43,204 nt of DNA. Source: a virus. A program made the translations under genes and the position numbers. Under the pieces are notes generated by a model. The model was given only the letters and a program-made list of their open reading frames with translations, was not told the origin of the DNA and searched no databases. Shown one piece after another: positions 1,137 through 39,382 of the stretch. Each line of letters opens with the position of its first letter. Position 1 is the first letter of the stretch. The DNA lies in UHGV virus genome UHGV-0865506. One strand, 5' to 3'.

Positions 1137-1290
1137 ACAATAGACTTTGACCCTTCCGAAAGCGTCAGCGGAACTACACTCAAGTGCCTAATGGCACGCG
1201 TTGCGTTCCCTGCCGCTCCGCGGTCGCTTGCGATATCTCACAAGCTCAGTGAAGCTTAGCATATTTTTAAGTAAAAGTCAATACTAGTAG
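1137..1290. repeat. conserved intergenic element, copy 1 (structured leader with embedded minus-strand promoter)
   Basis: About 150 bp, roughly 80% identical to 32359..32512, with compensatory changes in a hairpin (GTGCC-TAAT-GGCAC here, GGAC-TTAC-GTCC in copy 2). Confidence 0.6.
1253..1281 (-). promoter_or_regulatory. sigma70-like promoter TTGACT-N17-TAAGCT inside repeat copy 1
   Basis: Minus-strand hexamers with 17-nt spacer, conserved in both repeat copies. Confidence 0.4.
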
Positions 1291-1902: not shown

Positions 1903-4170
1903 ATGTCCGATGTAATTTTATCCTACTCGTGGTCACGCCGCAACGCGCGAGCAGAGAAAAAGGATATAAACGTCAGAACCACACACACGGCAACACTGGA
2001 CGACCTGAAAGAGCTAATCAAGCCGCTCGATGCCGTTCGTGACGGGATTAACCCCAAGACTGCGGCCGGTTATATCACGGCCGCGTGCGATTCTACACAC
2101 AGCACCGTAAAAGACCCGGAAACCGGTGGCTTTAAACAAGCGCGTAAAGGCTTCTTCTATCGCTGTGACGCGTCTGTGAGCAAATCGTCGCTGGCGTATC
2201 TGGACTTCGACAGTGCAACACCGGAAGAGTACCAGGAAGCGGTGCGCCAGGTTAATCGCAGCCGCCGGGCGATGTGTCTCTACACCACGGCATCACATAC
2301 CGATGAGTCGCCGCGCTTTCGCGTCGTTATGCCGCTGGCCCGCCCGGTTGAGGGTGGTGATATCATCCGTGTTCGCCACGGATTGCTGGAACACTTCTTC
2401 AAAGGCATGGGTGCGGACCGCAGCGGGTTTACTCTGTCGCAGCCGATGTACCTACCACCGGTTGGCTCTCAGGTTATCTGGTCGCGCCGCAACGACCTGA
2501 TTGACCCGGACGAATTACTGGAAGGCGCCACCGCCGTTGACGTTAGCAGCGCATCGGATTACCAGATACCGGAAGAACTGCGCACAGCGTTTACAGACGC
2601 GTTCGAAGCGCTGGCGTTTGAGTACGGCGGCGTCATGACGCCGCGCGGCCTTAAGATGCCAGCTACACCGGAACACGCAGAGAACTACAGCGACCCTACG
2701 CCGCGCCCGGATGACTTCCTGCTGTGTTTCCCGCGTGAAGGGTACGAAGCGCCGAACGTAACCATGATTCACGACACCGACATTACGGCAACCGAAGGCA
2801 TGTCACCGAAAGAGGTGTGGAAATACGCGTGTGATGCGACCGGGCTGCCGTTCAGTGAAGTGGCTGAGGCTATAGGGTGGGGCGCGCGTGAATCTGTTTC
2901 ATGCAGCCTTGACGACCTGGAAGACGAGGATGACTCAGAGGAGGACGAGTTACCGGAACCGGTAAAGGCTGATTTCGTCGTTGAAGGGTACATGCCGTCG
3001 GATTGTATATGGGATATTGTCGGGGAATCAGGCACGTACAAATCGTTCTATACGCTGGGTATGATGTACCTTAGCGCGGCGGGATACCGGTTCGCAGGGG
3101 CTGATACCCAGCGTTGCCACCACTTCTATATCGACGGTGAGGGTGGTGCCGCTACGCGCACCCGTATCGACGCACTAGCGGCTAAATACGGCGTGGAAGG
3201 TAAAGATTATGTACACGTCATCGATATGGGTGAGGTCGGCAAACTGAAGAGCCTGATTAAGCTAATGCGCGAAACCGCGGGAGATGAACCTATTGGCATG
3301 GTCGCGTTCGACACACTAAACCAGACGCTGGCCCTGACGATTGATAAGTTCGACGAGAACAGTTCATCAACGGCAATCGGCATGGGTAAAGTTATCGCCA
3401 TCCTTAAAGAAGTGCGTGACGCGACTAAAGCCGCGGTAGGCGTTGTCCATCATACGCCGAAAGGCGGAAAGAAAGCCCGTGGCAGTGGGGCGCTGTATGC
3501 TGGTGTCGACGTGGAACTGACAATTGAACGCGCAACCGACCGCCAGATAAACGTATATCACTCTAAATTTAAGCACGGGCCTCAACAGAAGACGGTTGGC
3601 ATGGTGCTGGAGTCGGTACAGTTCCGTGAAGCACCGCCGCCGAAAGAGTACCGTGCGGTTGAGTTCATCGGTAGCACAGAGGAATACGGCACAATCGTAA
3701 ACCTCGACCTGCCTGAGCCGCACAAGGCGCTTGTGCTGATGCCGTGGGGCTTCGAGCCGTTCAAGACTGACGAGGAGAAAGAGCGGGAAGAAGGGCTGAC
3801 AAAGGAAGGTAAAGAAAACGTACGTAAAACCGTAGAGAACGCCGTCAACAGTTCGGAGGCCACGATACTGGCAGCGTTTGAGCTGGCAGAAGGAACCTAC
3901 AGCGGCAACGAAGGCATCACGGTAGCTGCAGCGAATAAGCTCGCGCAGTCTGACCCCAACGCGAAGGCGTTTAACTCCAAAGAAGCTATAGAACGCGGGA
4001 AGATTAAGAAAATGGTTGAGGCCGGGTATCTTGTTCCGGGTACTGACGAAAACAATCAGATAATCCCTGGTCGTTACAGGCTGAACACCCGAATAACTGA
4101 TAACAAGATTCCGAAGACAATATACGAACCGAATGAAATGTTGACAGTGACAGAGGAGGATTTGGAATGA
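1903..4170 (+). CDS. primase-polymerase (AEP-like) fused to a RecA-like helicase domain
   Basis: 755 aa. N-terminal LAYLDFDS (DxD) and TTASHTD (sxH) resemble archaeo-eukaryotic primase motifs; central GESGTYKS P-loop-like motif and VVHHTPKGG suggest an NTPase/helicase domain. Confidence 0.75.
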   Translation: MSDVILSYSWSRRNARAEKKDINVRTTHTATLDDLKELIKPLDAVRDGINPKTAAGYITAACDSTHSTVKDPETGGFKQARKGFFYRCDASVSKSSLAYLDFDSATPEEYQEAVRQVNRSRRAMCLYTTASHTDESPRFRVVMPLARPVEGGDIIRVRHGLLEHFFKGMGADRSGFTLSQPMYLPPVGSQVIWSRRNDLIDPDELLEGATAVDVSSASDYQIPEELRTAFTDAFEALAFEYGGVMTPRGLKMPATPEHAENYSDPTPRPDDFLLCFPREGYEAPNVTMIHDTDITATEGMSPKEVWKYACDATGLPFSEVAEAIGWGARESVSCSLDDLEDEDDSEEDELPEPVKADFVVEGYMPSDCIWDIVGESGTYKSFYTLGMMYLSAAGYRFAGADTQRCHHFYIDGEGGAATRTRIDALAAKYGVEGKDYVHVIDMGEVGKLKSLIKLMRETAGDEPIGMVAFDTLNQTLALTIDKFDENSSSTAIGMGKVIAILKEVRDATKAAVGVVHHTPKGGKKARGSGALYAGVDVELTIERATDRQINVYHSKFKHGPQQKTVGMVLESVQFREAPPPKEYRAVEFIGSTEEYGTIVNLDLPEPHKALVLMPWGFEPFKTDEEKEREEGLTKEGKENVRKTVENAVNSSEATILAAFELAEGTYSGNEGITVAAANKLAQSDPNAKAFNSKEAIERGKIKKMVEAGYLVPGTDENNQIIPGRYRLNTRITDNKIPKTIYEPNEMLTVTEEDLE

Positions 4171-4364
4171 GCGGTAAATTTAAAGAAGTAAGCGACGAAC
4201 TGAAAGGTAATAAATACACCAACCACAGAGGCGAAGTAGTAGAAGTTCTTAACGTAGTTCCTTATGGGCGCGGGTATCATGTTGTGTTCAGTTACACAGA
4301 GGCTTACAGCGTGTACTGCGGGTTAGGTAAGTTTCGCAAAAGATACCCGATAAAGGTGCAATAA
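4167..4364 (+). CDS. hypothetical protein
   Basis: Track ORF, ATGA overlap with the primase gene; preceded by the junction repeat ACAGAGGAGGATTTGGAATGAG. Confidence 0.5.
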   Translation: MSGKFKEVSDELKGNKYTNHRGEVVEVLNVVPYGRGYHVVFSYTEAYSVYCGLGKFRKRYPIKVQ

Positions 4365-4390
4365 AAAGAAAGGGGCGTTAAGCCCCTTCA
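4362..4390. terminator. rho-independent terminator, mainly minus-strand (bidirectional position)
   Basis: Hairpin AGGGGC-loop-GCCCCT with A-tract on the plus strand (T-tract on minus) just after the stop of the HTH gene 4378..4593. Confidence 0.55.
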
Positions 4391-4657: not shown

Positions 4658-4687
4658 TTGACAACATGAATAGTTCGCTATTATAGT
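4658..4687 (+). promoter_or_regulatory. sigma70 promoter TTGACA-N18-TATAGT
   Basis: Consensus -35 and near-consensus -10; back-to-back with the regulator promoter. Confidence 0.55.
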
Positions 4688-4718
4688 TAACCAATACCAA
4701 ACGAGAGGAGAGAAACAA

Positions 4719-4922
4719 ATGTTAGAGAAATTTTTGAAATTACCTGAAAAACAGTTCGTTGCAGTATGGTTCATTGGTGGCAACCCATTTTCAATGACCT
4801 TCAACTGGGTTAATGGCGTTCTTAAGGCATACGACTTCACCGCAGATAAATTCGAAGCAGAGCACGGGATAACATCAGAATTTCTTTCTAAAGTAAACGC
4901 ACAGATTATTGAAACTAAATAA
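4719..4922 (+). CDS. hypothetical protein; N-terminus paralogous to 4938..5438
   Basis: Strong GAGAGGAGAG Shine-Dalgarno; begins MLEKFLKLPEKQFVA, matching MLEQFLKLLERFVVA of the next gene. Confidence 0.5.
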   Translation: MLEKFLKLPEKQFVAVWFIGGNPFSMTFNWVNGVLKAYDFTADKFEAEHGITSEFLSKVNAQIIETK

Positions 4923-4937
4923 ACAGGAGAACAAATA

Positions 4938-5438
4938 ATGTTAGAACAATTCTTAAAATTACTGGAACGTTTCGTAGTTGCGCATGAACTGATTGCTGCG
5001 AACAGTGCGAAACAAGTTGTTCAGGCTTCCGCACCGATGGAAGTAGAGACGGTAGTGTATACCAAAGAAGCGGTAGCCGAGTGCGCCGAAGAAGAAACAA
5101 AAGAAATCCCGGTTGAAGGCGAAGACGTCGTTGACACCAAACCGACAGAAGACGAGAAGCCTAAACGCAAGCCGCGTAAAGCTAAAGTAGAGGAACCAAC
5201 GCCAGAGCCGGAAGAAGTGAAAGAAGAGGTAGATTACCAGTCTCTTCGTGACCAGATTCAGGCTATCGATGATGCCATTAACGAAGGCCCGAGCGATGCC
5301 GCGTGCGATGATTCCGATGAACTGCTGGAAGAGTTCACCGGCAAGAAGATGAAGATTGCCGCGATTAAAGACGAAGACCTGGCCGAGTACCTGAAGCGTC
5401 TGACAGCAATCAAGAACAAGTATTTCGAAGAAGAATAA
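4938..5438 (+). CDS. acidic low-complexity protein
   Basis: AGGAGA Shine-Dalgarno; long Glu/Asp/Pro/Lys-rich region. Confidence 0.55.
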   Translation: MLEQFLKLLERFVVAHELIAANSAKQVVQASAPMEVETVVYTKEAVAECAEEETKEIPVEGEDVVDTKPTEDEKPKRKPRKAKVEEPTPEPEEVKEEVDYQSLRDQIQAIDDAINEGPSDAACDDSDELLEEFTGKKMKIAAIKDEDLAEYLKRLTAIKNKYFEEE

Positions 5439-5481
5439 CTATCTCGCGGCCTTCGGGTCGCTTTAACTGAGGGTCGGAATT

Positions 5482-5718
5482 ATGATTATTAAAGATATTA
5501 ACAACGATGAAGCCAGAGTTAGCCTTGAGGTTCGCAACACGATACAGGGAAAGCAGAAAAGAGTAACCCTAGATTTCGACCCTGCGGATGAGATGAACGG
5601 GCTTTCGTTCATGGAATATACTCCTGATATGGCGAGAGAACTTGCTAAAGCGCTTATTTCCGCAGCGGATGAGGCGGAGGCTATGCTGGACGAACTTGAC
5701 TTTGATAGTTTTGAATGA
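5482..5718 (+). CDS. hypothetical acidic protein
   Basis: Track ORF; preceded by the repeated initiation region TGAGGGTCGGAATTATG. Confidence 0.5.
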   Translation: MIIKDINNDEARVSLEVRNTIQGKQKRVTLDFDPADEMNGLSFMEYTPDMARELAKALISAADEAEAMLDELDFDSFE

Positions 5719-5729
5719 GGGTCGGAAAT

Positions 5730-6002
5730 ATGATTTATCAACTATACCGCGCCATCGACAGGCGGGATAACACCGAGGCGATATGGCTGTTGCGTGCGCC
5801 GTCCGGTGCACACCAGATGGAAGAGATGGCGTACTTAGGCAAAGTACCGCGGCCTAAAGATATAGGCCGTCACGTGTCGCAGATTAAGCGCACGACTTTC
5901 GCCAAACCTGACTTTTATGTCTTCGAGTCGATGTATGGATGGGCTATGCACCGCCAGCACCAGACACAACATTTAATTGACCAGTGGGAGAACAGGGTAT
6001 GA
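5730..6002 (+). CDS. hypothetical protein
   Basis: Track ORF 5715..6002 with start moved to the internal Met that follows the repeated TGAGGGTCGGAAATATG initiation region. Confidence 0.5.
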   Translation: MIYQLYRAIDRRDNTEAIWLLRAPSGAHQMEEMAYLGKVPRPKDIGRHVSQIKRTTFAKPDFYVFESMYGWAMHRQHQTQHLIDQWENRV

Positions 6003-7264
6003 TTTTAAAGGAACGCGGCGGCAATAACGACGTACACGCTTTACTGTCGCCGTCAGGCGCTAAGAAGTGGCTAAGTTGCGCCGCATCGCTGGCTTGTGAA
6101 AAAGATATTCCTAACACGTCGGGTAAATCCGCCGTTACGGGGACAGCGTGTCACACAATAGCTGAGGTACATCTAAACCAGTACATCAAAGGCACTGCGC
6201 TGCCGTTAGAGCGTGAAGTCGGTGCGTACGTGCTGGATGAGGGTAAAGGACAGATTAAGGCACTAATCAGTCCGATGAAAGGTGCGGTACTGATTACGGC
6301 TGACATGATTGAGCAGGTGCGCAAGTATACCGACTACTGTAAACCGATTATCGATGTAGCGACTTACGCCAAGCTGGAAATGCGTGTCAATCTTACTGAG
6401 GTATTGCATCCGGGATACATCCATAGCCCCGGTGGGAGGCAAGAAGAAATTCAAACCTTCGGAACCGCTGACCTTGTTGCCGTGCAGGAACTGGCCAACA
6501 CTGATGAGCACATGTTAATTATCGGCGACCTGAAAACCGGACGGCATCGTGTCGAAGCGAAAGAAAACAAGCAGCTTATGCTTTACGCTCTCGGTGTTTA
6601 TCGCCGACTCAAGAGACGTTATAACATAACAACCGTTCGTCTGGTCATCTTCCAGCCGTACGCGGGCGGTGCGTCGGAGTGGGACATCTCGGTTGAAGGT
6701 CTGGAACTGTTCGCTAAGTTCGCCCAGAAGCGCGCACTGTTAGCGCTTGATGCGTATTTCCGCGGTAAGAAGAACCTGAAAGCGTCGGACTTCAAGCCGT
6801 CGGTAGATGGTTGTCAGTGGTGTCGGTTCTCAGAACAGTGCGCAGCGCGTACAAAAACCGTTAACGCGGTACTGGCGGAAGAACTGGAGGACGACTTTGC
6901 TCTTGAAATGACACCTGAGCAACTCGTAGCTGAGTATGAGAAGTTGCCGTTGTTGCGCCAGCACATCGACAAGGTTGAGAAAGCTATGGCTGCCGCGCTG
7001 CATTCGGGTAAGAAAGTTCCGGGGTACAAGCTGGTTGAAGGTCGCCCGGGTAATCGTGCATGGAAAGACACTGATGCGGTATTCGAGAAGTACGGTACTA
7101 TGCTGCAAAAGGTAGTGCTCATGACGCCAACCGAAGCTGTTAAAGTTGTGCCGGAAGAAGAACTGAAAGACTTCATTACTCGTAAGCCAGGAGCGCCGTG
7201 CGTCACAACGGCAGATGACAAACGGCCTGAGTGGAATCAGGTAACAGAGGAGGATTTGGAATGA
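5999..7264 (+). CDS. PD-(D/E)XK nuclease, Cas4/RecB-like (DUF2800-type)
   Basis: N-terminal LSPSGAKKWLSC, central IIGDLKTG and C-terminal cysteine cluster CQWCRFSEQC are typical of Cas4-like nucleases; ATGA coupling to the upstream gene. Confidence 0.7.
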   Translation: MILKERGGNNDVHALLSPSGAKKWLSCAASLACEKDIPNTSGKSAVTGTACHTIAEVHLNQYIKGTALPLEREVGAYVLDEGKGQIKALISPMKGAVLITADMIEQVRKYTDYCKPIIDVATYAKLEMRVNLTEVLHPGYIHSPGGRQEEIQTFGTADLVAVQELANTDEHMLIIGDLKTGRHRVEAKENKQLMLYALGVYRRLKRRYNITTVRLVIFQPYAGGASEWDISVEGLELFAKFAQKRALLALDAYFRGKKNLKASDFKPSVDGCQWCRFSEQCAARTKTVNAVLAEELEDDFALEMTPEQLVAEYEKLPLLRQHIDKVEKAMAAALHSGKKVPGYKLVEGRPGNRAWKDTDAVFEKYGTMLQKVVLMTPTEAVKVVPEEELKDFITRKPGAPCVTTADDKRPEWNQVTEEDLE

Positions 7265-7761
7265 GTTTAGTTCGGGAGCGTTTCATTTATGAAAACGGGA
7301 AACTAATCTATCGCCACAATACAAAAAGAATGTTAGCTGGTCAGGAGGCAGGAAGCCTCCACCATTCAGGGTATGTGCAGATCTACATTAATCGTAAGTC
7401 CTACCAAAGAAGCCGTTTAATATGGGAGTACCACAACGGCCCTATACCTGAAGGGTTTGAGGTGGACCATATAAATGCGATAAGAAATGATGACAGGATA
7501 GAGAATCTCCAGTTAATCGCTCATAGCGATAATGTGGCTAAAGGCGGCATTCAAACCGGAAGAAGTCATAACAAAAGCGGGTACACTGGCGTGTTTTGGC
7601 GCAAAAGCCATGGTAAATGGCAGGCTGGAATTACCGTAAACGGGCAATATCGTTACCTTGGACTATTCGAAACTCCTGAACAGGCTAACGTGGCGAGAAA
7701 GAATTTTGAAAGTAATTTGCTAAAAGAAGTTGACTACCGAATAGCGAACTATTATAGTTAA
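7261..7761 (+). CDS. HNH homing endonuclease with AP2 DNA-binding domain
   Basis: HNH motifs (YHNGPIPEGFEVDHINAIRNDDRIENLQLIAHSDN) followed by an AP2-like segment (GVFWRKSHGKWQAGITVNGQYRYLGLFETPEQA). Confidence 0.8.
   Translation: MSLVRERFIYENGKLIYRHNTKRMLAGQEAGSLHHSGYVQIYINRKSYQRSRLIWEYHNGPIPEGFEVDHINAIRNDDRIENLQLIAHSDNVAKGGIQTGRSHNKSGYTGVFWRKSHGKWQAGITVNGQYRYLGLFETPEQANVARKNFESNLLKEVDYRIANYYS
7730..7758 (+). promoter_or_regulatory. sigma70 promoter TTGACT-N17-TATAGT embedded in the 3' end of the HNH gene
   Basis: Near-consensus hexamers; part of a 32-bp repeat shared with 11631..11660. Confidence 0.5.
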
Positions 7762-7821: not shown

Positions 7822-8448
7822 GTGGGACTGAAATTAAATCTGCGTAAAGTAAACACTGCATGGGTTAACGTATTTGAACGCGAAAAAGACCGTGAAAACG
7901 ATGATGGCTCAATCACTAAAGGCCAGTACAGCGCGACTATCATCCTGCAGTCTGGCCATGCTCAAATCGACGCACTCTACGACACTGTTTACGCTGTAGT
8001 TGAAGAAGCGTTAGGTGCAGCCGCCGCCGAGAAATGGATGAAGTCCAACTACGGCGAAGGTAAGCACATGGATAAATGCGCGATTAAAGATATTGCCGAG
8101 CGTGACAATCCGTTTGAAGACTTCCCTGAAGGCTTCTACTTCAAAGCGAAGGCACAGAAACAACCGCTGATTGTAACATCTAAAAAAGGTGAGACTCAGG
8201 TAGAGCAGGATTTCAATGTAGACGGCGAACAGATTGAAGGCGAACAGGTTTACAGCGGCTGCGTCGCTAACGTAAGCGTTGAAATCTGGTTCAGCCAGAA
8301 ATACAAAGTACTCGGTGTTAACCTGCTGGCAATTAAGTACGTTGGTGAAGGTAAAGCGTTTGGTGGTTCTAAAGTAGCTGCGAGTGTCGAGGACCTGGAA
8401 GACGACGAAGAAGATGAAGCACCGCGCCGCGAACGTCGTCGCCGTTAA
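7822..8448 (+). CDS. single-stranded DNA-binding protein-like (DUF2815-type)
   Basis: GTG start with GAGGG Shine-Dalgarno; acidic C-terminal tail DLEDDEEDEAP typical of SSBs; sits between Cas4-like nuclease and DNA polymerase as in the conserved replication module. Confidence 0.55.
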   Translation: MGLKLNLRKVNTAWVNVFEREKDRENDDGSITKGQYSATIILQSGHAQIDALYDTVYAVVEEALGAAAAEKWMKSNYGEGKHMDKCAIKDIAERDNPFEDFPEGFYFKAKAQKQPLIVTSKKGETQVEQDFNVDGEQIEGEQVYSGCVANVSVEIWFSQKYKVLGVNLLAIKYVGEGKAFGGSKVAASVEDLEDDEEDEAPRRERRRR

Positions 8449-8468: not shown

Positions 8469-8491
8469 AGGCCCTTCATTGGGCCTTTTTA
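8469..8491 (+). terminator. rho-independent terminator
   Basis: Hairpin AGGCCC-TTCATT-GGGCCT followed by TTTTT. Confidence 0.6.
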
Positions 8492-8502
8492 CCGGAGTCA
8501 GA

Positions 8503-8976
8503 ATGGAACATATAAAAGATTTTCTTAGTTATAACCGAGAAACCGGAATATTCACATGGATACAACCTACGTACAGACGAGGGAGACCCGGAGACATTGC
8601 GGGATGTATGAATAGTAGCGGATACTGGCGCATACCCTACATGGGTAGATACTACATGGCCCATAGGCTTGCTTGGTTTTTCGAGTACGGCGAATGGCCT
8701 GAGGGGCCTCTTGACCATATAAACCGTGACAGGTTAGACAATAGGATTTCTAACCTAAGGAAAGCAACCACAGCGGATAATGTGCGAAACGCTAAAAATA
8801 AGGGAGCTAGAACGGGAGTTAAGGGAGTAGTTAAAAACGGCAACCGGTTTTATGGGCGTGTACATTTTAACTACAAAAGTTATAACGCTGGTAGCTACGG
8901 AACTCTTGAAGAAGCAGAAAGCGCTGTAAAGAAATTAAGAGAAAAACTGCATAAGGAATTTTATTGCCATGACTAG
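8503..8976 (+). CDS. HNH homing endonuclease with AP2-like domain (second copy)
   Basis: HNH motifs (EGPLDHINRDRLDNRISNLR) plus AP2-like GVKGVVKNGNRFYGRVHF; start at internal Met with GGAG Shine-Dalgarno. Confidence 0.8.
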   Translation: MEHIKDFLSYNRETGIFTWIQPTYRRGRPGDIAGCMNSSGYWRIPYMGRYYMAHRLAWFFEYGEWPEGPLDHINRDRLDNRISNLRKATTADNVRNAKNKGARTGVKGVVKNGNRFYGRVHFNYKSYNAGSYGTLEEAESAVKKLREKLHKEFYCHD

Positions 8977-11173
8977 TTTATTGTACCTGGATACCGAGAC
9001 ATTCTCCGAAGCAGACTTAAAGAAAGTCGGGTCGTATGCGTATGCGGAGCACCCAACGACAGAGGTTATAATTTGTACGTATGCCGTTGATGACGGTCCT
9101 GTAGAAGTATGGGATTGCACTTCCGAATCAGTAATGCCGATAAGCCTCCGTGTGGCTCTCCGTAATGTTATGCGTGGACGTATGAAAATCGTGGGCCATA
9201 ACTTTTTAATGTTCGATCGCCTAATCATGAAACACTGCTGGGGCTTCGATATACCGGTAAGCAACACCATTGACACGATGATTTGGGCGTTTCGTCACGC
9301 GCTGCCAGGTTCACTTGATGCGCTGTGTGAAGTGCTTGGCGTGTCCGCTGATAATGCGAAAGACAAACGCGGCAAGGCGCTGATTCAGCGTTTCTCTAAA
9401 CCGACACCGAAGAACTACAAAATTCGCCGCTACACCGCCGAAACACACCCTGACGAGTGGGCGCTGTTCATCAAGTACGCCGTGAGTGACATTACTGCTA
9501 TGCGTGAAGTCTTCCATAAGCTTCCGCGGTGGGGTAACTCTGAGTTTGAAGACCGTGTACTGGAACTGGACCAGTTAATCAATGACCGTGGGTTTAAGGT
9601 TGACGTTGCACTGGCGGAAGCCGCGATTGAAGCCGTGGAGAAACACAAAGCACAGTTACAGGAAGAAGCCCAACGCAAATACGGCGGCTCGCTTACGGGT
9701 AAAGACTTTCTGCCGATTCTGCGTGAACTTGCCCCAGCGCACCACATACACAATGCGCAGAAGTCGACGCTTAACGACCTGTTGGTGGACGATGATTTAC
9801 CTGACGACGCCCGCACGATTATCGAAATGCGCCTCGGGGCCGCGTCCACAGCGTCAACGAAATATAACCCGCTGCTGTTGGGCCGCTCGTCGGACGACCG
9901 ACGCCGCGGTTGTTTACAGTACGGCGGGGCAAAACGTACTTTGCGGTGGGCGGGTAAAGGCTTTCAGCCGCAGAACCTGGCCCGCGGGTACTATCATGAT
10001 GATGAACTGGATAAAGGCATTTCAGCGTTACTTAAGGGTCGTGCTCACCGCCGATTTGACGTAGCCAAGCTGACGGCATCGACGGTCCGTAGCTGCATCA
10101 TACCGGAAGCCGGGCACAAGTTTGTCGTAGCTGATTACTCTAACGTCGAAGGTCGTGGGTTAGCGTGGTTAGCAGGAGAAGAAACCGCGCTCGATACGTT
10201 CCGTGCCGGACTGGATATTTACTGTGTAACCGCAGGTAAGATGTTTGGCATGGACCCTGACGATATTAAGAAAAACTTTAAGGAAATCAGACAGATAGGC
10301 AAGGCTTGCGAACTGGGCCTCGGCTACGAGGGGGGTGTCGGAGCGTTCGTTACGTTTGCTAAAAACTTAGGTCTTGACCTTATTGAGATGGCAAAAACAA
10401 TGGACGGGACTTTCCCTGACCACATCTGGGCCGCTACCGCGAGAGGATATGAATGGGCGCGCATCCAGGAAGCCAAGCGCCCCCCACATCCAGGTGAAAA
10501 GGACGATAGGCCATCGTATATTCTTGATAAAAAAGTATGGCGTACTTGTGATGCTATCAAGCGTATGTGGCGCGAGTCACACCCGGAAACAGTAGCGTTC
10601 TGGCGCGACCTTAAAGACGGAATTTTAGCCGCTGTGCGTAATCCTGGCCGTGAATTTTGGGCGGGGGCACACTTGCGCAGGAATGGGGAAAGGGCTATCC
10701 GTATATGGCGTACTGTAGAATTTGATTCATCCGGCAGGAAGGTTCCTGGTTGGTGGTTGTGTATGGAGCTGCCGTCAGGCCGTATCCTCTCGTATCCAGG
10801 AATAGGCGTTAGTGTGACTGTGACAAAGGAAACAGACGAAGGCGGACGGGTAAACACGGATGTGCGAATCAAGTATCAGGGTGAAAACCAGTTAACCCGC
10901 CAATGGACTACCCTGTACACCCATGGCGGCAAAGCCTGCGAAAACATTGTCCAGGCGTTGTGTCGTGATTTACTCGCGTATGCGATGATTAATGTTGAGG
11001 GTGGCGGGTACCCCATCGTGCTTTCGGTACACGATGAACTGGTATGTGAAACTCCCGACACACCTGAGTACACGGTGGCCGAACTGGAAAAATTAATGTG
11101 CGCATTGCCGGAGTGGGCCGAGGGGTTCCCTCTTGTAGCAGAAGGCGCGGAGATGATGCGTTATGCCAAGTAA
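8969..11173 (+). CDS. family A DNA polymerase with 3'-5' exonuclease domain
   Basis: Exo motif LYLDTETF; Pol A motif A (VVADYSNVEGRGLA), motif B (RQIGKACELGLGYEGG), motif C (VHDELV). Confidence 0.9.
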   Translation: MTSLLYLDTETFSEADLKKVGSYAYAEHPTTEVIICTYAVDDGPVEVWDCTSESVMPISLRVALRNVMRGRMKIVGHNFLMFDRLIMKHCWGFDIPVSNTIDTMIWAFRHALPGSLDALCEVLGVSADNAKDKRGKALIQRFSKPTPKNYKIRRYTAETHPDEWALFIKYAVSDITAMREVFHKLPRWGNSEFEDRVLELDQLINDRGFKVDVALAEAAIEAVEKHKAQLQEEAQRKYGGSLTGKDFLPILRELAPAHHIHNAQKSTLNDLLVDDDLPDDARTIIEMRLGAASTASTKYNPLLLGRSSDDRRRGCLQYGGAKRTLRWAGKGFQPQNLARGYYHDDELDKGISALLKGRAHRRFDVAKLTASTVRSCIIPEAGHKFVVADYSNVEGRGLAWLAGEETALDTFRAGLDIYCVTAGKMFGMDPDDIKKNFKEIRQIGKACELGLGYEGGVGAFVTFAKNLGLDLIEMAKTMDGTFPDHIWAATARGYEWARIQEAKRPPHPGEKDDRPSYILDKKVWRTCDAIKRMWRESHPETVAFWRDLKDGILAAVRNPGREFWAGAHLRRNGERAIRIWRTVEFDSSGRKVPGWWLCMELPSGRILSYPGIGVSVTVTKETDEGGRVNTDVRIKYQGENQLTRQWTTLYTHGGKACENIVQALCRDLLAYAMINVEGGGYPIVLSVHDELVCETPDTPEYTVAELEKLMCALPEWAEGFPLVAEGAEMMRYAK

Positions 11174-11389: not shown

Positions 11390-11663
11390 GGGGCGCATCC
11401 AGAAATACGCAAAAGAGCGATTCGAGGCTATCGGCGGCCTCGTACGCAAATTGTCGTACGAAAATAGAGCGGGCGCTCCTGACCTGCTGGTAATTCTCCC
11501 CGGCGGCATCATCTGGTTCGTCGAGGTTAAGAAAGACGAAAACACGAAGCCAGACCCACACCAGCTACGAGAGCACGAGCGGATGCGTAAACGTGGAGCA
11601 AATGTTTTTGTCGTTGGTTCGTTTAAACAGGTTGACGACCTAATAGCGAACTATTATAGTTAG
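11376..11663 (+). CDS. VRR-NUC domain nuclease
   Basis: GAPDLLV...WFVEVKKD matches the PD-(D/E)XK core of VRR-NUC proteins; position after DNA polymerase is typical. Confidence 0.7.
   Translation: MSTPEGRIQKYAKERFEAIGGLVRKLSYENRAGAPDLLVILPGGIIWFVEVKKDENTKPDPHQLREHERMRKRGANVFVVGSFKQVDDLIANYYS
11632..11660 (+). promoter_or_regulatory. sigma70 promoter TTGACG-N17-TATAGT embedded in the 3' end of the VRR-NUC gene
   Basis: Part of the 32-bp repeat shared with 7730..7758. Confidence 0.5.
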
Positions 11664-11693: not shown

Positions 11694-11885
11694 ATGAAAC
11701 ACGAATATGACCGTAAACCAGCACGTGACATCGTACCTGGCGACATGATTTTCAACGTTAAGACACGTCGCCCTGTTGCCGTTGATACGGTGTTCGTCGA
11801 GTCGAACGGTAAACTGGTTATCGAAGATGTAACTGGTAACGTTACGGCGTTCGGGCGTAAAGAGCTGGTGCTGGTGGCAAAATGA
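11694..11885 (+). CDS. hypothetical protein
   Basis: Track ORF with AAGGAA Shine-Dalgarno. Confidence 0.5.
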   Translation: MKHEYDRKPARDIVPGDMIFNVKTRRPVAVDTVFVESNGKLVIEDVTGNVTAFGRKELVLVAK

Positions 11886-12565
11886 TTGTCTGGTCATTGT
11901 TTGACGGTTCGGGCCTTATGGCCCAACCGTGGGCAGAAGCGGGCCATACTTGCTATTGTTTCAACTACGATGGTGCCGACCACGGCGACTACGCGCGATT
12001 GGGCGCAAAAGTTGAACACGAGAACATCCACTATATAAACGCGTGGATTGATAATAAGTTCGACTTCGAGGTTTCGCCAGATATTATTTTTGCGTTCCCT
12101 CCTTGCACAGATTTAGCCGTTAGTGGCGCGGCGCATTTCGAAACGAAGCGTAAGAAGAACCCAACGTTTCAGGTAGAGGCTGTTATCACATGCAAAGTGG
12201 CGGCACGCCTGGCTAAAAGGTATAACGTACCTTATATGATTGAGAACCCAGTTAGCGTCCTCTCGTCTTTGTGGCGTAAGCCCGATTATGTGTTCAATCC
12301 TTACGAATACGGCGGCTATCTACCGGAAGACGATACGCATCCAATGTTCCCTGAATACATAAAACCCCGAGACGCGTACCCTAAAAAGACATGTCTTTGG
12401 ACGGGTAATGGTTTCGTAATGCCGGTTAAGTCAGGTGTTGCCGTGGGTGATGGGTATTCTGACCAGCACAACAAACTTGGCGGTAAATCAGTGCGGACAA
12501 AAACAATCCGCAGCCTTACTCCTCGGGGTTTCGCAAAAGCAGTTTACGAGGCTAATCATGTCTAA
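11882..12565 (+). CDS. DNA (cytosine-5)-methyltransferase-like protein, compact, no obvious target-recognition domain
   Basis: LFDGSG (motif I-like), FAFPPCTDLAVSG (PC catalytic motif IV-like), MIENPVS (ENV motif VI-like); only 227 aa. Confidence 0.5.
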   Translation: MIVWSLFDGSGLMAQPWAEAGHTCYCFNYDGADHGDYARLGAKVEHENIHYINAWIDNKFDFEVSPDIIFAFPPCTDLAVSGAAHFETKRKKNPTFQVEAVITCKVAARLAKRYNVPYMIENPVSVLSSLWRKPDYVFNPYEYGGYLPEDDTHPMFPEYIKPRDAYPKKTCLWTGNGFVMPVKSGVAVGDGYSDQHNKLGGKSVRTKTIRSLTPRGFAKAVYEANHV

Positions 12566-13982
12566 GTTTCAAAGACGCGAGTACCAGAAACTCATGACCT
12601 CGTTCATGTTGCAACACCATCGCTGCAACATATGGGCAAGCATGGGCGCCGGGAAGACTGGCAGCGTACTGTGGGCATTAAACCGACTGTTCCGAAACGG
12701 GCAGCTTAATGACGAGGACCGCGTGTTAATCCTCGCCCCGTTACGTGTTGCGTCTGGCACATGGCCAGCAGAACAAGAGAAATGGAATTTCCCATGCCTG
12801 AGTGTCGTCGATGCTACCGGTTCAGAGAAGCGCCGCATCGCGGCGCTGGAGTCAGACGCTAATGTAATTTGTATTAACTATGAGGTTATAGAGTGGCTTA
12901 TCGACTATTACGGGGTAGATGACTGGCCCTTTACTGTGATAGTTAACGATGAAAGTACAAAGTTGAAATCGTACCGTAGCCGTTCTGGCGGGAGCAAGAG
13001 GGCAAAGGCGCTTAGTAAAGTAGCATTTAGAAATGTTAAGCGGCTGATAAACCTTACGGGAACACCGTCGCCGAACGGCCTCAAAGACTTGTGGGGGCAG
13101 AACTGGTTTATTGACGCTGGCGAGCGCCTCGGTTCTTCATACACGGCATTCACCGACCGATGGTTTAACTCTGTACAGAAAGGCAAATCGGCTATGGCGC
13201 GTGAGTACCATGCCCGCCCTGGTGCTGATAATGAGATTCACCAGAAGATGAAGGACATCAGTCTTACGATTGATGCTGCCGAGTGGTTCGGTTGTGAAGC
13301 ACCTATTATCGTGCCGGTGGAAATTGACCTGCCGAAGAAAGCACGTCAGGCGTACATCGATATGGAGGAGAAGTTATTCGCTGAACTTGAGAGCGGGGAA
13401 GTTGAAGCGGCTAACGCAGCGGCGAAGACGTCGAAGTGTTTGCAGATTGCATCCGGTGCCGTATATGTGTCCGGGCCGGATGGTGAAGCAACGAAAGAAT
13501 GGGAGAAAGTGCACGACACGAAACTGGATGCGCTGGAGTCCATTGTTGAGGAGTTACAGGGCGCGCCGTTACTGGTGGCCTATCAGTTCAAGCATGAACT
13601 GGAGCGTATCCTTAAGCGATTCCCACAGGCCCAGGCGTTTGCAAAAGGCGCTAAGGGCAATAAGCAGATGGAAGCGTGGAACCGCGGTGAAATCGAGATT
13701 TTGTGTGTGCATCCCGCATCAGCCGGGCATGGTTTGAATTTACAGGACGGCGGGCATCATCTGGCGTTTATTTCACAAGGGTGGAACCTTGAGCACTATT
13801 TGCAGGTTGTCGAGCGTATAGGCCCAGTACGCCAGAAACAGGCAGGCCATGAGCGCCCGGTGTTCCTGTATCACATCGTAGCTAAAGACACGCTGGACGA
13901 GGTTGTTGCCGCGCGTACCGACGAGAAGAAATCGGTGCAGGAAGAATTGCTTAATTACATGAAGAGACGAGGTAAGAAATGA
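12558..13982 (+). CDS. SNF2-family helicase
   Basis: Walker A ASMGAGKT, DExx box VNDEST, C-terminal helicase motifs; start at internal Met overlapping the upstream stop. Confidence 0.8.
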   Translation: MSKFQRREYQKLMTSFMLQHHRCNIWASMGAGKTGSVLWALNRLFRNGQLNDEDRVLILAPLRVASGTWPAEQEKWNFPCLSVVDATGSEKRRIAALESDANVICINYEVIEWLIDYYGVDDWPFTVIVNDESTKLKSYRSRSGGSKRAKALSKVAFRNVKRLINLTGTPSPNGLKDLWGQNWFIDAGERLGSSYTAFTDRWFNSVQKGKSAMAREYHARPGADNEIHQKMKDISLTIDAAEWFGCEAPIIVPVEIDLPKKARQAYIDMEEKLFAELESGEVEAANAAAKTSKCLQIASGAVYVSGPDGEATKEWEKVHDTKLDALESIVEELQGAPLLVAYQFKHELERILKRFPQAQAFAKGAKGNKQMEAWNRGEIEILCVHPASAGHGLNLQDGGHHLAFISQGWNLEHYLQVVERIGPVRQKQAGHERPVFLYHIVAKDTLDEVVAARTDEKKSVQEELLNYMKRRGKK

Positions 13983-14164
13983 AACTTAATGTTGGCGATG
14001 AGATATACAGCATACACTCATTCAATACTTTCACCATCGAGTACATATCGAAAGACGGCAACAGCTTTGTTTTGGTAAGCTCGGACGGTAAATACGAAAA
14101 GTCACGCTGCTACACGCTGCCGGACATAAAGCGCAGTTTCAAGAAAAGCGAAGGTAAGAAATGA
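13979..14164 (+). CDS. hypothetical protein
   Basis: Track ORF, ATGA overlap, junction repeat GGTAAGAAATGAA. Confidence 0.45.
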   Translation: MKLNVGDEIYSIHSFNTFTIEYISKDGNSFVLVSSDGKYEKSRCYTLPDIKRSFKKSEGKK

Positions 14165-14298
14165 ACATCATAGCCCCGATTCCAGCATTGCAAAAACGTA
14201 TCAAGGAACTTGAAGAAGAGGTTCTACGGCTACGGCAACAAAGAGACGCCGCTAATGCGCAACTGGCGTTTGTACTGGAGAAGTTACCTGAAGAGTAG
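14161..14298 (+). CDS. small coiled-coil protein (45 aa), candidate
   Basis: Hand-derived ORF MNIIAPIPALQKRIKELEEEVLRLRQQRDAANAQLAFVLEKLPEE, coupled by the same junction repeat. Confidence 0.3.
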   Translation: MNIIAPIPALQKRIKELEEEVLRLRQQRDAANAQLAFVLEKLPEE

Positions 14299-23503: not shown

Positions 23504-23532
23504 TTGCACACCCCAATATAATAGGGTACTAT
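23504..23532 (+). promoter_or_regulatory. sigma70-like promoter TTGCAC-N17-TACTAT (TACTATTCA family) driving the rightward cassette
   Basis: TTGCACACCCCAATATAATAGGGTACTATTCA; near-identical to 32569..32600. Confidence 0.5.
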
Positions 23533-23562
23533 TCACTTACACCAACAATGAAGGGGTTTAAA

Positions 23563-24932: not shown

Positions 24933-25402
24933 CATGGAATGATGTTTACGAATACGAAAACGGGAATCTTTACGCTAAGGACAGCGTAAACCCTAAGTAC
25001 CCGAAAGGACGTAAAGTAGGGTATGTGGACCAACGAGGGTATGTAAGAACTAAACTAGGGTCAAAAATGACATTCGCCCACAGAATTATATGGGAAATGT
25101 TTAACGGAGCTATACCAGAAGGCAAGGAGATTGACCATATAAACGGTGTGAAAAGCGATAACCGTATAGAGAATCTTCGACTGTGTGACCGGCGCATAAA
25201 CTGCAAAAATGCAGCAAAGCGCAGGGATAACTCGTCTGGCGTTACCGGGGTTAGTAAAACATATAACGGTAAGTGGGTAGTTCAAATTCAATATAACGGA
25301 AATAGAATAGCCAAGCGTTTCGACAACAAAGAAGACGCCGTAAGATATGCCGAAGGTTTTTACAAAGAAAAGAAAGACTTTACTGAGAGGCACGGAAAAT
25401 GA
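24929..25402 (+). CDS. HNH homing endonuclease with AP2-like domain (third copy)
   Basis: HNH motifs (EIDHINGVKSDNRIENLR) plus AP2-like GVSKTYNGKWVVQIQYNGNRIAKRF. Confidence 0.8.
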   Translation: MTWNDVYEYENGNLYAKDSVNPKYPKGRKVGYVDQRGYVRTKLGSKMTFAHRIIWEMFNGAIPEGKEIDHINGVKSDNRIENLRLCDRRINCKNAAKRRDNSSGVTGVSKTYNGKWVVQIQYNGNRIAKRFDNKEDAVRYAEGFYKEKKDFTERHGK

Positions 25403-32358: not shown

Positions 32359-32512
32359 GCAATAGACTATGGCCCTTCCGAACGCGTCAGCGTAACTACA
32401 CTCAGGACTTACGTCCCGCTCCGTTACCTGCCCGCGCCGCGGTCGCTTGTTCATACTTCACAAGCTCAGGTGGAGCTTAGCACATTTTTAGTGAAAAGTC
32501 AACTATTCGAAT
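32359..32512. repeat. conserved intergenic element, copy 2
   Basis: Homologous to 1137..1290; lies in the 5' leader region of the spanin/late operon. Confidence 0.6.
32474..32502 (-). promoter_or_regulatory. sigma70-like promoter TTGACT-N17-TAAGCT inside repeat copy 2
   Basis: Same hexamers and spacing as in copy 1. Confidence 0.4.
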
Positions 32513-38891: not shown

Positions 38892-39103
38892 TTAATCAAA
38901 TAATAAATATCATCACGGGCGAACTCATCCGCATCATCCTGGCAGTCGATATCGTAGTCGCCGTCGCCCCACTCAATCGCCATTACTCGCGCTAACTGTC
39001 GGCGCATCCGCTTGTTGTTCTTTAGGTCTGTAAATATCTTAAGTTCTTTGTCGTACGCACGTACCATCATCTTCATTTTGCTTTTCATTTCTTCTCTCCC
39101 CAC
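38888..39103 (-). CDS. hypothetical acidic protein
   Basis: Track ORF. Confidence 0.4.
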   Translation of the reverse strand: MGREEMKSKMKMMVRAYDKELKIFTDLKNNKRMRRQLARVMAIEWGDGDYDIDCQDDADEFARDDIYYLIN

Positions 39104-39382
39104 ATGCGATTGAGATACTTGTTCTTGTCTGGCCCCTGGAAACTGTTGCGTTTCATCAGTTCCTCACGTGTCGGGAACGGAGTGTGACTGACTTTACGGC
39201 CTACTCGTAATGGTTGGCTAACTGGACCTTGTTCGCTCATTTCTTCTCTCCTGCATAAGCTGCTTTCAGTGTCTGCATCGCAGCGAACCAGAACGCGGCC
39301 GCCGGGATGCTGTTGCTCAGGTTACTAACGGCGATGCGTGCCATCAGTTGTGCGTCTTTGAATGCTTCTATATCTGTGATTT

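What the first reader, a model, noticed from the sequence alone, without database searches (positions are those of the whole stretch)
4147..4170. Recurrent gene-junction cassettes with identical ribosome-binding and overlap sequences
At least three junction types recur. (1) ACAGAGGAGGATTTGGAATGAG at 4147..4170 and 7240..7264, giving both the primase-helicase and the Cas4-like nuclease a VTEEDLE C-terminus and an ATGA-coupled downstream start. (2) GGTAAGAAATGAA at about 13969..13983 and 14149..14163, with both upstream proteins ending GKK. (3) TGAGGGTCGGAAWTATGATT at about 5463..5485 and 5712..5735. Such repeated boundary sequences are potential substrates for homologous recombination that shuffles or inserts small genes.
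Basis: seen in the sequence. Interest (0 to 1): 0.5.

Follow-up and report, generated by a model that had tools for sequence, protein, structure and literature searches.

The report
Repeated ribosome-binding junctions at accessory-gene slots
The repeats are real and sit where related phages gain or lose small genes, but they are ordinary start signals for back-to-back genes: one pair comes from two replication proteins sharing an old tail, the others are local duplications left by small-gene insertion or loss.

Summary
The window is a Kagunavirus-like (Guernseyvirinae) E. coli phage. All three repeats exist, a few bases from the stated coordinates, and two more pairs of the same kind turned up. 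In 77 related loci, gene presence/absence breakpoints fall exactly on every repeat.

There are two different things here.

**R1 (4147-4171 / 7241-7265)** is not a mobile cassette.
- Primase-helicase and the DUF2800/Cas4-like exonuclease each carry an old conserved tail, T-E-E-D-L-E.
- Its GAG-GAG-GAT codons form a Shine-Dalgarno site 7 nt before an ATG that overlaps the stop (ATGA).
- At the exonuclease end, the Shine-Dalgarno codon version occurs if and only if a coupled downstream ORF is present (45+25 loci against 2 exceptions, in at least two clades).
- The two ends host disjoint sets of inserted ORFs and show no concerted evolution.

**R2, R3 and the new pair R4** each bracket one accessory ORF (182, 248 and 219 bp). 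Relatives lacking the ORF keep a single copy. This is the footprint of short-homology insertion or deletion, as described for mycobacteriophage Island3.

This is a known kind of feature and of modest interest.

The parts
4147..4171 (+). R1 copy 1. Last 7 codons of the primase-helicase (V-T-E-E-D-L-E), GGAGG at 4155-4159, and a TGA stop (4168-4170) overlapping the ATG (4167-4169) of the downstream accessory ORF.
   Evidence: tail conserved in relatives
7241..7265 (+). R1 copy 2. Last 7 codons of the DUF2800/Cas4-like exonuclease (V-T-E-E-D-L-E), with the same Shine-Dalgarno site and ATGA overlap onto the HNH endonuclease ORF.
   Evidence: two haplotypes in relatives
1903..4170 (+). Primase-helicase (AAA_25 domain). 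Core gene.
4167..4364 (+). Accessory 65-aa ORF (phrog_36357, function unknown) in the slot between the primase-helicase stop and the terminator. Present in 7 of 49 relatives. Several other unrelated ORF families occupy the same slot elsewhere.
4368..4389 (.). Terminator hairpin (GAAGGGGC...GCCCCTTT) that forms the 3' edge of the primase-end slot.
4706..4748 (+). R4 copy 1 (new). Ribosome-binding site plus the first ~9 codons (MLEKFLKL) of accessory ORF 4719-4922.
4719..4922 (+). Accessory 67-aa ORF (phrog_6314). Cleanly absent (one-copy junction) in 23 relatives and not found at DNA level in any of the 75 loci examined at that point. Weakly homologous to an insert family found after the exonuclease in other phages.
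4925..4967 (+). R4 copy 2. Ribosome-binding site plus the first ~9 codons (MLEQFLKL) of conserved gene 4938-5438. 33 of 43 identical to copy 1.
5462..5487 (+). R3 copy 1. TTTAACTGAGGGTCGGAATTATGATT, the ribosome-binding site and start of accessory ORF 5482-5718.
5482..5718 (+). Accessory 78-aa ORF (phrog_13316). Absent in 26 relatives, which keep one copy of the junction.
5710..5735 (+). R3 copy 2. TTTGAATGAGGGTCGGAAATATGATT, the stop of the accessory ORF plus the ribosome-binding site and start of conserved gene 5730-6002.
5984..7264 (+). PD-(D/E)XK / DUF2800 exonuclease with a C-x2-C-x5-C motif (Cas4-like). Core gene.
7261..7761 (+). HNH endonuclease ORF (HNH_3, phrog_99) in the slot between the exonuclease and the SSB promoter. 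Absent from all 75 loci examined at that point. A 98% copy is in phage PQ579973. A 74% nt homologue sits in the same slot in Cornellvirus FSL SP-031.
7730..7758 (+). Sigma-70-like promoter of the SSB gene (TTGACT-17-TATAGT). It is the 3' edge of the exonuclease-end slot and lies inside the HNH ORF.
12435..13982 (+). SNF2-type helicase ending RRGKK*. Core gene.
13970..13983 (+). R2 copy 1. AGGTAAGAAATGAA, the helicase end with ATGA overlap.
13979..14164 (+). Accessory 61-aa ORF (phrog_27617). 13 relatives have the empty site with one junction copy. At least 9 other inserts occupy this slot elsewhere.
14152..14165 (+). R2 copy 2. AGGTAAGAAATGAA, the end of the accessory ORF (SEGKK*) with ATGA overlap onto conserved gene 14161-14298.
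39085..39099 (-). R5 copy (new). GGAGAGAAGAAATGA on the minus strand, the end of ORF 39085-39240 (GEKK*) with ATGA overlap.
39237..39251 (-). R5 copy (new). The same 15-mer at the end of ORF 39237-39386 (GEKK*) with ATGA overlap.

Best explanation
The repeats are translational-coupling junctions. Each has a Shine-Dalgarno site written into the last codons of the upstream ORF, followed by an ATGA stop/start overlap or a short spacer. They lie at fixed slots in the early and replication operons where small promoter-less accessory ORFs come and go among related phages. The repeats arose in two different ways.

(a) R1 is parallel constraint, not a transferred cassette. Primase-helicase and the DUF2800/Cas4-like exonuclease each carry an old, conserved acidic tail, [ST]-[ED]-[EDG]-D-L-[E..]. 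Written as GAG-GAG-GAT-TTG-GAA, it places GGAGG 7 nt before an ATG that overlaps the TGA stop. That codon version is kept when a coupled ORF follows. So 22 nt become identical at two unrelated gene ends.

(b) R2, R3 and the newly found R4 are local duplications of the recipient junction. In each, the two copies bracket exactly one accessory ORF. The ORF borrows its start from one copy and its stop, or the next gene's ribosome-binding site, from the other. This is the structure left by insertion, or resolved by deletion, through recombination at 14-43 nt of homology. R5 looks the same in the window, but the ORF it brackets was not seen as a clean presence/absence difference in relatives.

Shown here: the anatomy, breakpoint coincidence, motif conservation, the link between Shine-Dalgarno codons and a downstream ORF, and the lack of exchange between the R1 copies.

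Inferred: actual translational coupling, the direction of events (insertion or deletion), and which recombination enzymes act.
For: **Slots and breakpoints.**
- After the primase-helicase, relatives have either TAG/TAA plus terminator or ATGA plus one of several unrelated ORF families. The 3' edge is always at TAAAAAGAAAGGGG.
- After the exonuclease, relatives have either TAA plus promoter or ATGA plus one of at least 10 families.
- After the helicase, there are 13 empty sites and at least 9 different inserts, all joined at ...GGTAAGAAATGA | ATGAACATC.
- Before gene 5730, 21 or more empty sites carry a single TGAGGGTCGGAAWTATGATT.

**R1.**
- The tail motif is conserved down to 48% identity for the primase-helicase (TTEGDLE*) and 39% identity for the exonuclease (ATDEDLSNE*, ASDEDLS*, VTEDDLEA*).
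- [ED][ED]DL[ED] occurs only twice in all six reading frames of the window, at exactly these two C-termini.
- Exonuclease end: 45 loci have an insert and a Shine-Dalgarno core, 25 have neither, and there are 1+1 exceptions (Fisher p = 4e-17). The association is perfect in the Kaguna-like (22/21) and Jersey-like (3/6) clades.
- The block linked to insert presence is only the last 22 nt.
- Primase end: the same trend, p = 0.056.
- No concerted evolution between the two ends. Insert families are disjoint between them.

**R2-R4.**
- Flanking alignments overlap in the relative by 14, 26 and 38 nt across clean 182-, 248- and 219-bp indels.
- Direct repeats of 13 nt or more within 300 bp: 3 observed against 0.13 expected.

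**Other.**
- No promoter or terminator of their own flanks the inserts.
- ATGA/TGATG overlaps with intragenic Shine-Dalgarno sites are an established coupling arrangement (PMC6728339).
- The same repeat-flanked ORF structure was described for mycobacteriophage Island3 gp68 (PMC3029335).
Against: - The primase-helicase end keeps GAGGAGGAT in 14 of 23 Kaguna-like genomes with no downstream ORF. Need for a Shine-Dalgarno site therefore does not fully explain that copy.
- The Ser/Thr codon (AGT versus ACA) co-varies with insert presence although it is outside the Shine-Dalgarno core. I attribute this to tight physical linkage, which is not proven.
- The Fisher test is not corrected for shared ancestry.
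- R2 is only 13-14 nt. G-K-K* and G-E-K-K* tails (R2, R5) could partly be convergent products of a Shine-Dalgarno site plus an A-rich spacer.
- Most accessory segments in the window have 6 nt or less of flanking repeat, including 4167-4364, both HNH ORFs and the methyltransferase. Duplication of the junction is one route, not the rule.
- No expression or recombination data exist.
Confidence: 0.7

Rival explanations
1. The repeated junctions are linker sequences that act as the crossover sites for homologous recombination. They move small genes between sites and genomes, and R1 is a portable ribosome-binding-site and overlap cassette shared by two sites.
For: - Breakpoints coincide with every repeat.
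- The insert-linked haplotype block at the exonuclease end is exactly the 22 nt of R1.
- Linkage between insert type and flanking sequence is weak and decays within about 300 nt, so crossovers occur close to the junctions.
- The phage encodes a gp2.5/Enc34-type SSB and a PD-(D/E)XK exonuclease. Such proteins could, in principle, support short-homology annealing.
- An empty allele such as L049 is chimeric between the two R3 copies: a TTTAAC left part with an AAAT right part.
Against: - No insert family is shared between the primase-helicase end and the exonuclease end in 49 and 72 loci.
- There is no concerted evolution between the two R1 copies.
- Both tails are old and native to their genes.
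- The only family seen at both the exonuclease-end and helicase-end slots is HNH, at 33-38% amino-acid identity, so not recent movement.
- Most alternative inserts at the same slots carry no flanking repeat.
- Same-insert pairs do show slightly raised identity in the nearest 25-300 nt upstream (delta 0.02-0.055). That fits crossovers inside the flanking genes rather than exactly at the junction.
Confidence: 0.17
2. Homing-endonuclease driven. The slots are homing sites of free-standing HNH genes. The sharp 22-nt haplotype at the exonuclease end is a cleavage-immunity or co-conversion polymorphism. The other small ORFs later replaced the endonuclease gene.
For: - HNH ORFs occupy the exonuclease-end slot in the window, in PQ579973 and in Cornellvirus FSL SP-031.
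- HNH-like ORFs also occupy the helicase-end slot in L002, L010, L013, L028 and L048.
- The window carries three HNH ORFs.
- The HNH family at 7261 is sporadic, as homing genes are.
Against: - In the 77 loci compared, the Shine-Dalgarno haplotype accompanies every non-HNH insert at the exonuclease end and only two HNH-bearing genomes (the window and PQ579973).
- FSL SP-031 has the homologous HNH with a different junction: TGATG, tail ATDSDLDD*, no GGAGG.
- The slots bracketed by R2, R3 and R4 hold non-endonuclease ORFs in the window.
- No cleavage data exist.
Confidence: 0.08
3. Pure convergence. All repeats are independent solutions to the same ribosome-binding requirement, with no duplication or recombination history.
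For: - G-K-K* and G-E-K-K* tails recur (R2, R5), as expected from GGAG or AGG plus an A-rich spacer plus ATGA.
- ATGA overlaps are very common in this genome.
- R1 is indeed explained this way.
Against: - Convergence does not predict that similar junctions are neighbours. Yet R2, R3, R4 and R5 each bracket one ORF, giving 3 pairs of 13 nt or more within 300 bp against 0.13 expected.
- R3 includes a TGA with no stop function in copy 1 and in the empty allele.
- R4 extends about 9 codons into two unrelated proteins.
Confidence: 0.05

Closest known systems
Overlapping ATGA/TGATG gene pairs with an intragenic Shine-Dalgarno site: termination-reinitiation coupling (Huber et al. 2019, PMC6728339)
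   Same: Co-directional ORFs with a 4-nt ATGA overlap and GGAGG 7 nt upstream, inside the upstream coding sequence. The upstream codons are chosen to keep the Shine-Dalgarno site when a downstream ORF exists.
   Different: Here the arrangement marks variable slots where the downstream partner differs between genomes. Coupling itself was not measured.
Insertion of mycobacteriophage Island3 gene 68, flanked by ~50-bp repeats at the C-termini of adjacent genes (Pope et al. 2011, PMC3029335)
   Same: A small ORF absent from a close relative is bracketed by a short direct repeat that includes coding sequence of the neighbouring gene. Deletion and intermolecular insertion are equally possible (R2, R3, R4).
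   Different: The repeats here are shorter (14-43 nt). They include the ribosome-binding site and start or stop codons. Several occur in one genome.
Short conserved boundary (linker) sequences proposed for lambdoid phage mosaicism (Susskind and Botstein 1978; Clark et al. 2001; cited within PMC3029335; otherwise from my own knowledge)
   Same: Short repeated sequences at gene borders coincide with mosaic breakpoints.
   Different: No evidence here that distant copies (R1) exchange. Most slot variants lack shared linkers, which fits illegitimate recombination plus selection at gene borders.
Morons (Juhala/Hendrix; from my own knowledge)
   Same: Extra genes are inserted between conserved genes of a phage genome.
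   Different: Morons bring their own promoter and terminator. These inserts have neither and depend on the upstream gene's ribosome-binding site and the operon's transcription.
Free-standing HNH homing endonuclease genes between conserved phage genes
   Same: The HNH_3 ORF at 7261-7761 is sporadic and occupies the same intergenic slot in two genera.
   Different: It accounts for only one of the inserts. Homing activity was not tested.
Acidic C-terminal tails of T7 gp4 helicase-primase and gp2.5 SSB that dock on the DNA polymerase (PMC5686142 for T7-type SSB tails; the rest from my own knowledge)
   Same: The primase-helicase and a gp2.5/Enc34-type SSB carry acidic tails, here sharing a D-L-E core that is also on the exonuclease.
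   Different: No terminal aromatic residue. The exonuclease also carries the tail. Binding was not tested.

Membership tests
Translationally coupled overlapping gene pair (ATGA type) | Co-directional ORFs whose stop and start overlap as ATGA | tested here: met
   Overlaps at 4167-4170, 7261-7264, 13979-13982, 14161-14164, and on the minus strand at 39237-39240.
Translationally coupled overlapping gene pair (ATGA type) | Shine-Dalgarno motif 5-10 nt upstream of the downstream start, inside the upstream ORF | tested here: met
   R1 has GGAGG at 4155-4159 and 7249-7253, 7 nt before the ATG. R2 has only AGG/GGTAAG, which is weak. R3 has GAGGG 8 nt before the ATG.
Translationally coupled overlapping gene pair (ATGA type) | Downstream translation depends on upstream translation | not testable with these tools
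   Needs reporter fusions or ribosome profiling.
Boundary-sequence (linker) homologous recombination | Short repeated sequence at gene borders | tested here: met
   Five pairs, R1-R5.
Boundary-sequence (linker) homologous recombination | Mosaic or indel breakpoints among relatives coincide with the repeats | tested here: met
Boundary-sequence (linker) homologous recombination | Products of exchange between the copies (shared inserts, concerted evolution, deletions between copies) | tested here: not met
   This applies to R1: insert families are disjoint and intra- and inter-genome distances are equal. For R2-R4 the empty alleles fit a crossover between the copies but do not prove it.
Moron | Own promoter and terminator flanking the inserted gene | tested here: not met
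   No promoter-like or terminator-like sites belong to 4167-4364, 5482-5718 or 13979-14164.
Free-standing HNH homing endonuclease gene | HNH nuclease domain | tested here: met
   HNH_3, E = 8e-18; phrog_99, E = 2e-51.
Free-standing HNH homing endonuclease gene | Sporadic distribution at a fixed intergenic site among relatives | tested here: met
   Absent from the 75 loci examined at that point. Present in PQ579973 (98%) and in the same slot in FSL SP-031 (74% nt).
Free-standing HNH homing endonuclease gene | Cleaves the endonuclease-less allele near the insertion site | not testable with these tools
   Needs an in vitro cleavage or co-infection assay.
Integron-like gene cassette | Site-specific recombinase plus attC/attI-type sites | tested here: not met
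   No recombinase or integrase was found among the proteins scanned in or next to these slots, or in the annotation of relatives L001 and L002. The repeats are ribosome-binding and coding sequence, not structured sites.

The most novel reading that the evidence does not exclude
Small promoter-less ORFs bounded by copies of a ribosome-binding-site/ATGA junction behave as integrase-free cassettes. The phage's own annealing and exonuclease machinery inserts and excises them through 13-43 nt of junction homology. Gene ends whose conserved acidic tail already encodes a Shine-Dalgarno site (the TEEDLE ends) serve as preferred landing pads, because any ORF landing on the stop codon is translated at once.
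Probability: 0.15. Interest if true: 0.6.

Novelty: new member of a known kind. Interest (0 to 1): 0.3.

Why it matters
- It gives a worked example, with about 75 related genomes, of where and how a lytic coliphage family takes up small accessory genes: at a few exact slots, in register with the stop codon of a core gene, using that gene's last codons as the ribosome-binding site.
- Synonymous codons in the exonuclease tail switch between a Shine-Dalgarno and a non-Shine-Dalgarno version according to whether a gene follows. This is a compact natural experiment on coupling.
- The slots are practical places to engineer payloads into therapeutic Kagunavirus phages.
- A D-L-E acidic tail shared by primase-helicase, exonuclease and SSB hints at a common docking partner.
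- None of this overturns current views of phage mosaicism.

Tried and rejected
1. **Gene conversion between the two R1 copies.** Intra-genome and inter-genome Hamming distances are equal. Rejected.
2. **Insert exchange between slots.** Clustering of 130 slot ORFs shows slot-specific families. The exceptions are distant HNH paralogues (33-38% identity) and a weak link (E = 3e-6) between window ORF 4719-4922 and an exonuclease-end family.
3. **Moron model.** No promoters or terminators of their own.
4. **Linkage test, to tell junction crossovers from flank crossovers.** There is only a small excess of identity for same-insert pairs within about 300 nt upstream (delta 0.02-0.055) and none at two slots. 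Pairs are not independent, so the result is inconclusive.
5. **Wide protein search for the exonuclease, to widen the view of the tail.** The 120 listed hits were all at least 85% identical, nearly all above 91%. They confirmed only the T/S split (52 NQVTEEDLE, 42 NQVSEEDLE).
6. **Structure prediction of the tails.** Not run. A monomer model would not test docking.
7. **Literature on Guernseyvirinae.** The searches returned no description of these junctions.
Full report
**What the window is.** Window 3000-9000 matches 447 phage records at 80-95% identity. Nearly all are Escherichia or Salmonella siphophages of the Guernseyvirinae: Kagunavirus, K1G/K1H and Jersey-like phages. I used two complete relatives (L001 PQ429079 and L002 OM272052). 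I also used 73 IMG/VR loci centred on the exonuclease gene with 10-kb flanks (L003-L075), plus FSL SP-031 and PQ579973 (L076, L077).

Family searches identify these genes:
- 1903-4170: primase-helicase (AAA_25)
- 5984-7264: PD-(D/E)XK / DUF2800 nuclease
- 7261-7761: HNH endonuclease
- 7822-8448: Enc34/gp2.5-type SSB
- 8969-11173: family-A DNA polymerase
- 12435-13982: SNF2 helicase

**Observation check.** All three repeats are real.
- R1: exact 22-mer at 4150-4171 and 7244-7265. It is 25 nt with one mismatch from 4147 / 7241.
- R2: exact 13-mer at 13971 and 14153 (14 nt from 13970 / 14152).
- R3: 20-mer with one degenerate position at 5468 and 5716 (26 nt, 23 matches, from 5462 / 5710).
- The stated protein tails are correct: VTEEDLE* twice, and RRGKK* / SEGKK*.

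The 22-mer is the second-longest exact direct repeat in the window. Markov shuffles give essentially no pairs of 20 nt or more. A 13-mer repeated somewhere is unremarkable (28 pairs seen, about 12 expected). Pairs of 13 nt or more lying within 300 bp are strongly enriched: 3 observed against 0.13 expected. With 12-mers the figures are 4 against 0.53.

That scan and an indel scan turned up two further junction pairs.
- R4: 4706-4748 / 4925-4967, 33 of 43 identical, covering the ribosome-binding site plus the first ~9 codons (MLEKFLKL / MLEQFLKL).
- R5: 39085-39099 / 39237-39251 on the minus strand, GGAGAGAAGAAATGA, with both ORFs ending GEKK*.

**Breakpoints in relatives.**
- After the primase-helicase, relatives read ...GAGGAGGATTTGGAA followed by one of two things. 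One is TAG/TAA and the terminator. The other is TGA overlapping the ATG of one of several unrelated ORF families. The 3' edge is always at TAAAAAGAAAGGGG of the terminator.
- After the exonuclease there is either TAA followed directly by the SSB promoter, or ATGA followed by one of at least ten ORF families. All of these end at the promoter's -35 box.
- After the SNF2 helicase, 13 loci have the empty junction GGTAAGAAATGAACATC. The others carry inserts of 176, 182, 191, 230, 482/494 (HNH-like) or 512 bp, among others.
- Upstream of gene 5730-6002, 21 or more loci have one copy of TTTAACTGAGGGTCGGAATTATGATTTACC. The window and a few loci carry inserts.

A systematic scan lists about 14 accessory segments in the window that are cleanly absent from relatives. 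The inserts have no promoter-like or terminator-like sites of their own.

**R1 is parallel constraint.** Five observations support this.
- *Both tails are native and old.* The primase-helicase ends VTEEDLE* in Kaguna-like phages and TTEGDLE* in Jersey-like phages (48% identity). The exonuclease ends V[ST]EEDLE*, VTEDDLEA*, ASDEDLS*, ATDEDLSNE* or ATDSDLDD*, down to 39% identity.
- *The motif is specific.* [ED][ED]DL[ED] occurs only twice in the six-frame translation of the window, at exactly these termini.
- *Codon choice follows the downstream gene.* The exonuclease end has two codon versions. GTTAGTGAAGAAGATTTGGAATAA (VSEEDLE, no Shine-Dalgarno site) occurs when nothing follows. GTAACAGAGGAGGATTTRGAATGA (VTEEDLE, GGAGG 7 nt before the overlapping ATG) occurs when an ORF follows. 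The counts are 45 and 25 loci, with one exception each way. The association is perfect in the Kaguna-like (22/21) and Jersey-like (3/6) clades, which have different sequence backgrounds. The associated block is just the last 22 nt.
- *The primase end leans the same way.* GAGGAGGAT is present in 13 of 14 occupied and 14 of 23 empty genomes (p = 0.056).
- *The two ends do not exchange.* Their insert families are disjoint. Mean Hamming distance between the two tails is 2.95 within genomes and 2.99 between genomes (permutation p = 0.45).

Given the shared peptide, the Shine-Dalgarno-imposed GAG-GAG and the ATGA-imposed GAA, only the Thr, Asp and Leu codons are free. Six of 19 occupied genomes have one mismatch or fewer in 21 nt. 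The window's exact 22-mer is therefore an ordinary draw.

**R2, R3 and R4 are local duplications.**
- In each, the two copies bracket exactly one accessory ORF: 13979-14164, 5482-5718 and 4719-4922.
- Relatives lacking the ORF keep one copy.
- The flanking alignments overlap in the relative by 14, 26 and 38 nt.
- The ORF takes its start from the left copy and its stop, or the next gene's ribosome-binding site, from the right copy.
- In R3, the TGA of the left copy has no stop function. In R4, the identity runs about 9 codons into two otherwise unrelated proteins.
- These details, and the fact that the copies are neighbours, argue for duplication or recombination rather than convergence.
- One exonuclease-end insert (L010) ends KEDLE* and retains GAAGATTTAGAATAAAGTGTTGAC, the old exonuclease end, at its 3' side. 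That is the same kind of footprint.

R5 brackets ORF 39085-39240 in the same way. That ORF was not flagged as a clean indel, although the ORFs on either side of the pair are absent from all loci examined.

The direction of the events, insertion or deletion, cannot be read from these data. Homologous inserts in L003 and L010, and most other inserts, lack the extended repeat. Junction duplication is therefore one route, not a requirement.

**Where crossovers fall.** Genomes sharing the same insert are only slightly more alike in the nearest 25-300 nt upstream. The difference is 0.02-0.055 at the exonuclease and helicase slots and fades by 600 nt. There is no difference at the other two slots. 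Recombination is therefore pervasive close to the slots. The test cannot separate crossovers at the junction from crossovers in the adjacent coding sequence, and the pairs are not independent.

**The HNH endonuclease.** The ORF at 7261-7761 is absent from all 75 loci examined at that point. It is 98% identical in PQ579973. A 74% nt homologue occupies the same exonuclease-to-SSB slot in Cornellvirus FSL SP-031, with a TGATG overlap and no GGAGG. This fits a site-specific homing gene. The Shine-Dalgarno haplotype, however, accompanies all non-HNH inserts too, so homing does not explain R1.

**Comparison with what is known.**
- ATGA overlaps with intragenic Shine-Dalgarno sites are a widespread coupling device (PMC6728339).
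- A small ORF bracketed by a ~50-bp repeat of the neighbouring gene's end was described for mycobacteriophage Island3. It was interpreted through the boundary-sequence model (PMC3029335).
- The inserts are not morons (no signals of their own) and not integron cassettes (no recombinase or att sites).
- T7-type SSBs have acidic tails implicated in binding the polymerase and the primase-helicase (PMC5686142).
- Here the SSB tail (ASVEDLEDDEEDE...) shares the D-L-E core with the two TEEDLE tails. In a distant clade, the SSB (CSDEDLG...) and the exonuclease (ASDEDLS*) change together. This suggests a common docking peptide. That is inference only.

**Verdict.** The repeats mark accessory-gene slots. 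The adjacent pairs are plausible recombination footprints or substrates. The headline 22-mer is a by-product of a shared conserved protein tail that doubles as a ribosome-binding site. This is a new, well-documented instance of known phenomena and of modest interest.

Noticed in passing
window 4150-4170, 7244-7264, 8370-8448 (SSB tail): Primase-helicase, exonuclease and the gp2.5/Enc34-type SSB all carry an acidic tail with a [ST]-x-[DE]-D-L-E core. In the distant clade L052-L059, the exonuclease tail (ASDEDLS*) and the SSB tail (CSDEDLGDDDEDE) change together. This may be a shared docking peptide.
   Followed up: partly
window 4706-4748 / 4925-4967: A fourth junction repeat (ribosome-binding site plus the first ~9 codons, 33 of 43 identical) brackets accessory ORF 4719-4922. 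The ORF is cleanly absent (one-copy junction) in 23 relatives and was not found at DNA level in any of the 75 loci examined at that point.
   Followed up: yes
window 39085-39099 / 39237-39251 (minus strand): A fifth junction repeat, GGAGAGAAGAAATGA. Two consecutive small ORFs both end GEKK* with an ATGA overlap. The ORFs on either side (38888-39103 and 39383-39580) are absent from all loci examined.
   Followed up: partly
window 7261-7761; L076 2400-2873: The HNH endonuclease ORF reads through the SSB promoter (-35/-10 at 7730-7758). A homologue sits in the same slot in Cornellvirus FSL SP-031 and also ends across the promoter.
   Followed up: partly
window 7261-7761, 8479-8976, 24929-25402: There are three HNH endonuclease ORFs, 33-38% identical to the 7261 copy. 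The 8479 copy is present in only 4 of the relatives examined.
   Followed up: partly
window 4658-4687, 7716-7760, 11618-11662; 23504-23539 / 32569-32604: Two families of repeated promoter-like sequences. One reads TTGAC...AATAGCGAACTATTATAGTTA. The other is a 36-nt, 94% repeat. These are longer than the junction repeats and could equally serve as recombination substrates.
   Followed up: no
window 1138-1182 / 32360-32404: A 45-nt direct repeat, 91% identical and 31 kb apart. Function unknown.
   Followed up: no
window 11882-12565: A DNA methyltransferase ORF (phrog_757) is accessory. It is absent from 15 relatives and joined to its upstream ORF by an ATGA overlap.
   Followed up: no
window 21015-21055 / 21243-21283: An internal 41-nt repeat (20 nt exact), 228 bp apart, inside the long minus-strand ORF 20348-22633, which is probably the tape measure gene.
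   Followed up: no
exonuclease-end slot in L002, L005, L017, L026, L039, L043, L053 and others: Many inserts after the exonuclease are small predicted membrane proteins (MIRKMFR..., MIRKIVYW..., MKKFTWWLL...). They may be one fast-evolving family, for example for superinfection exclusion.
   Followed up: no
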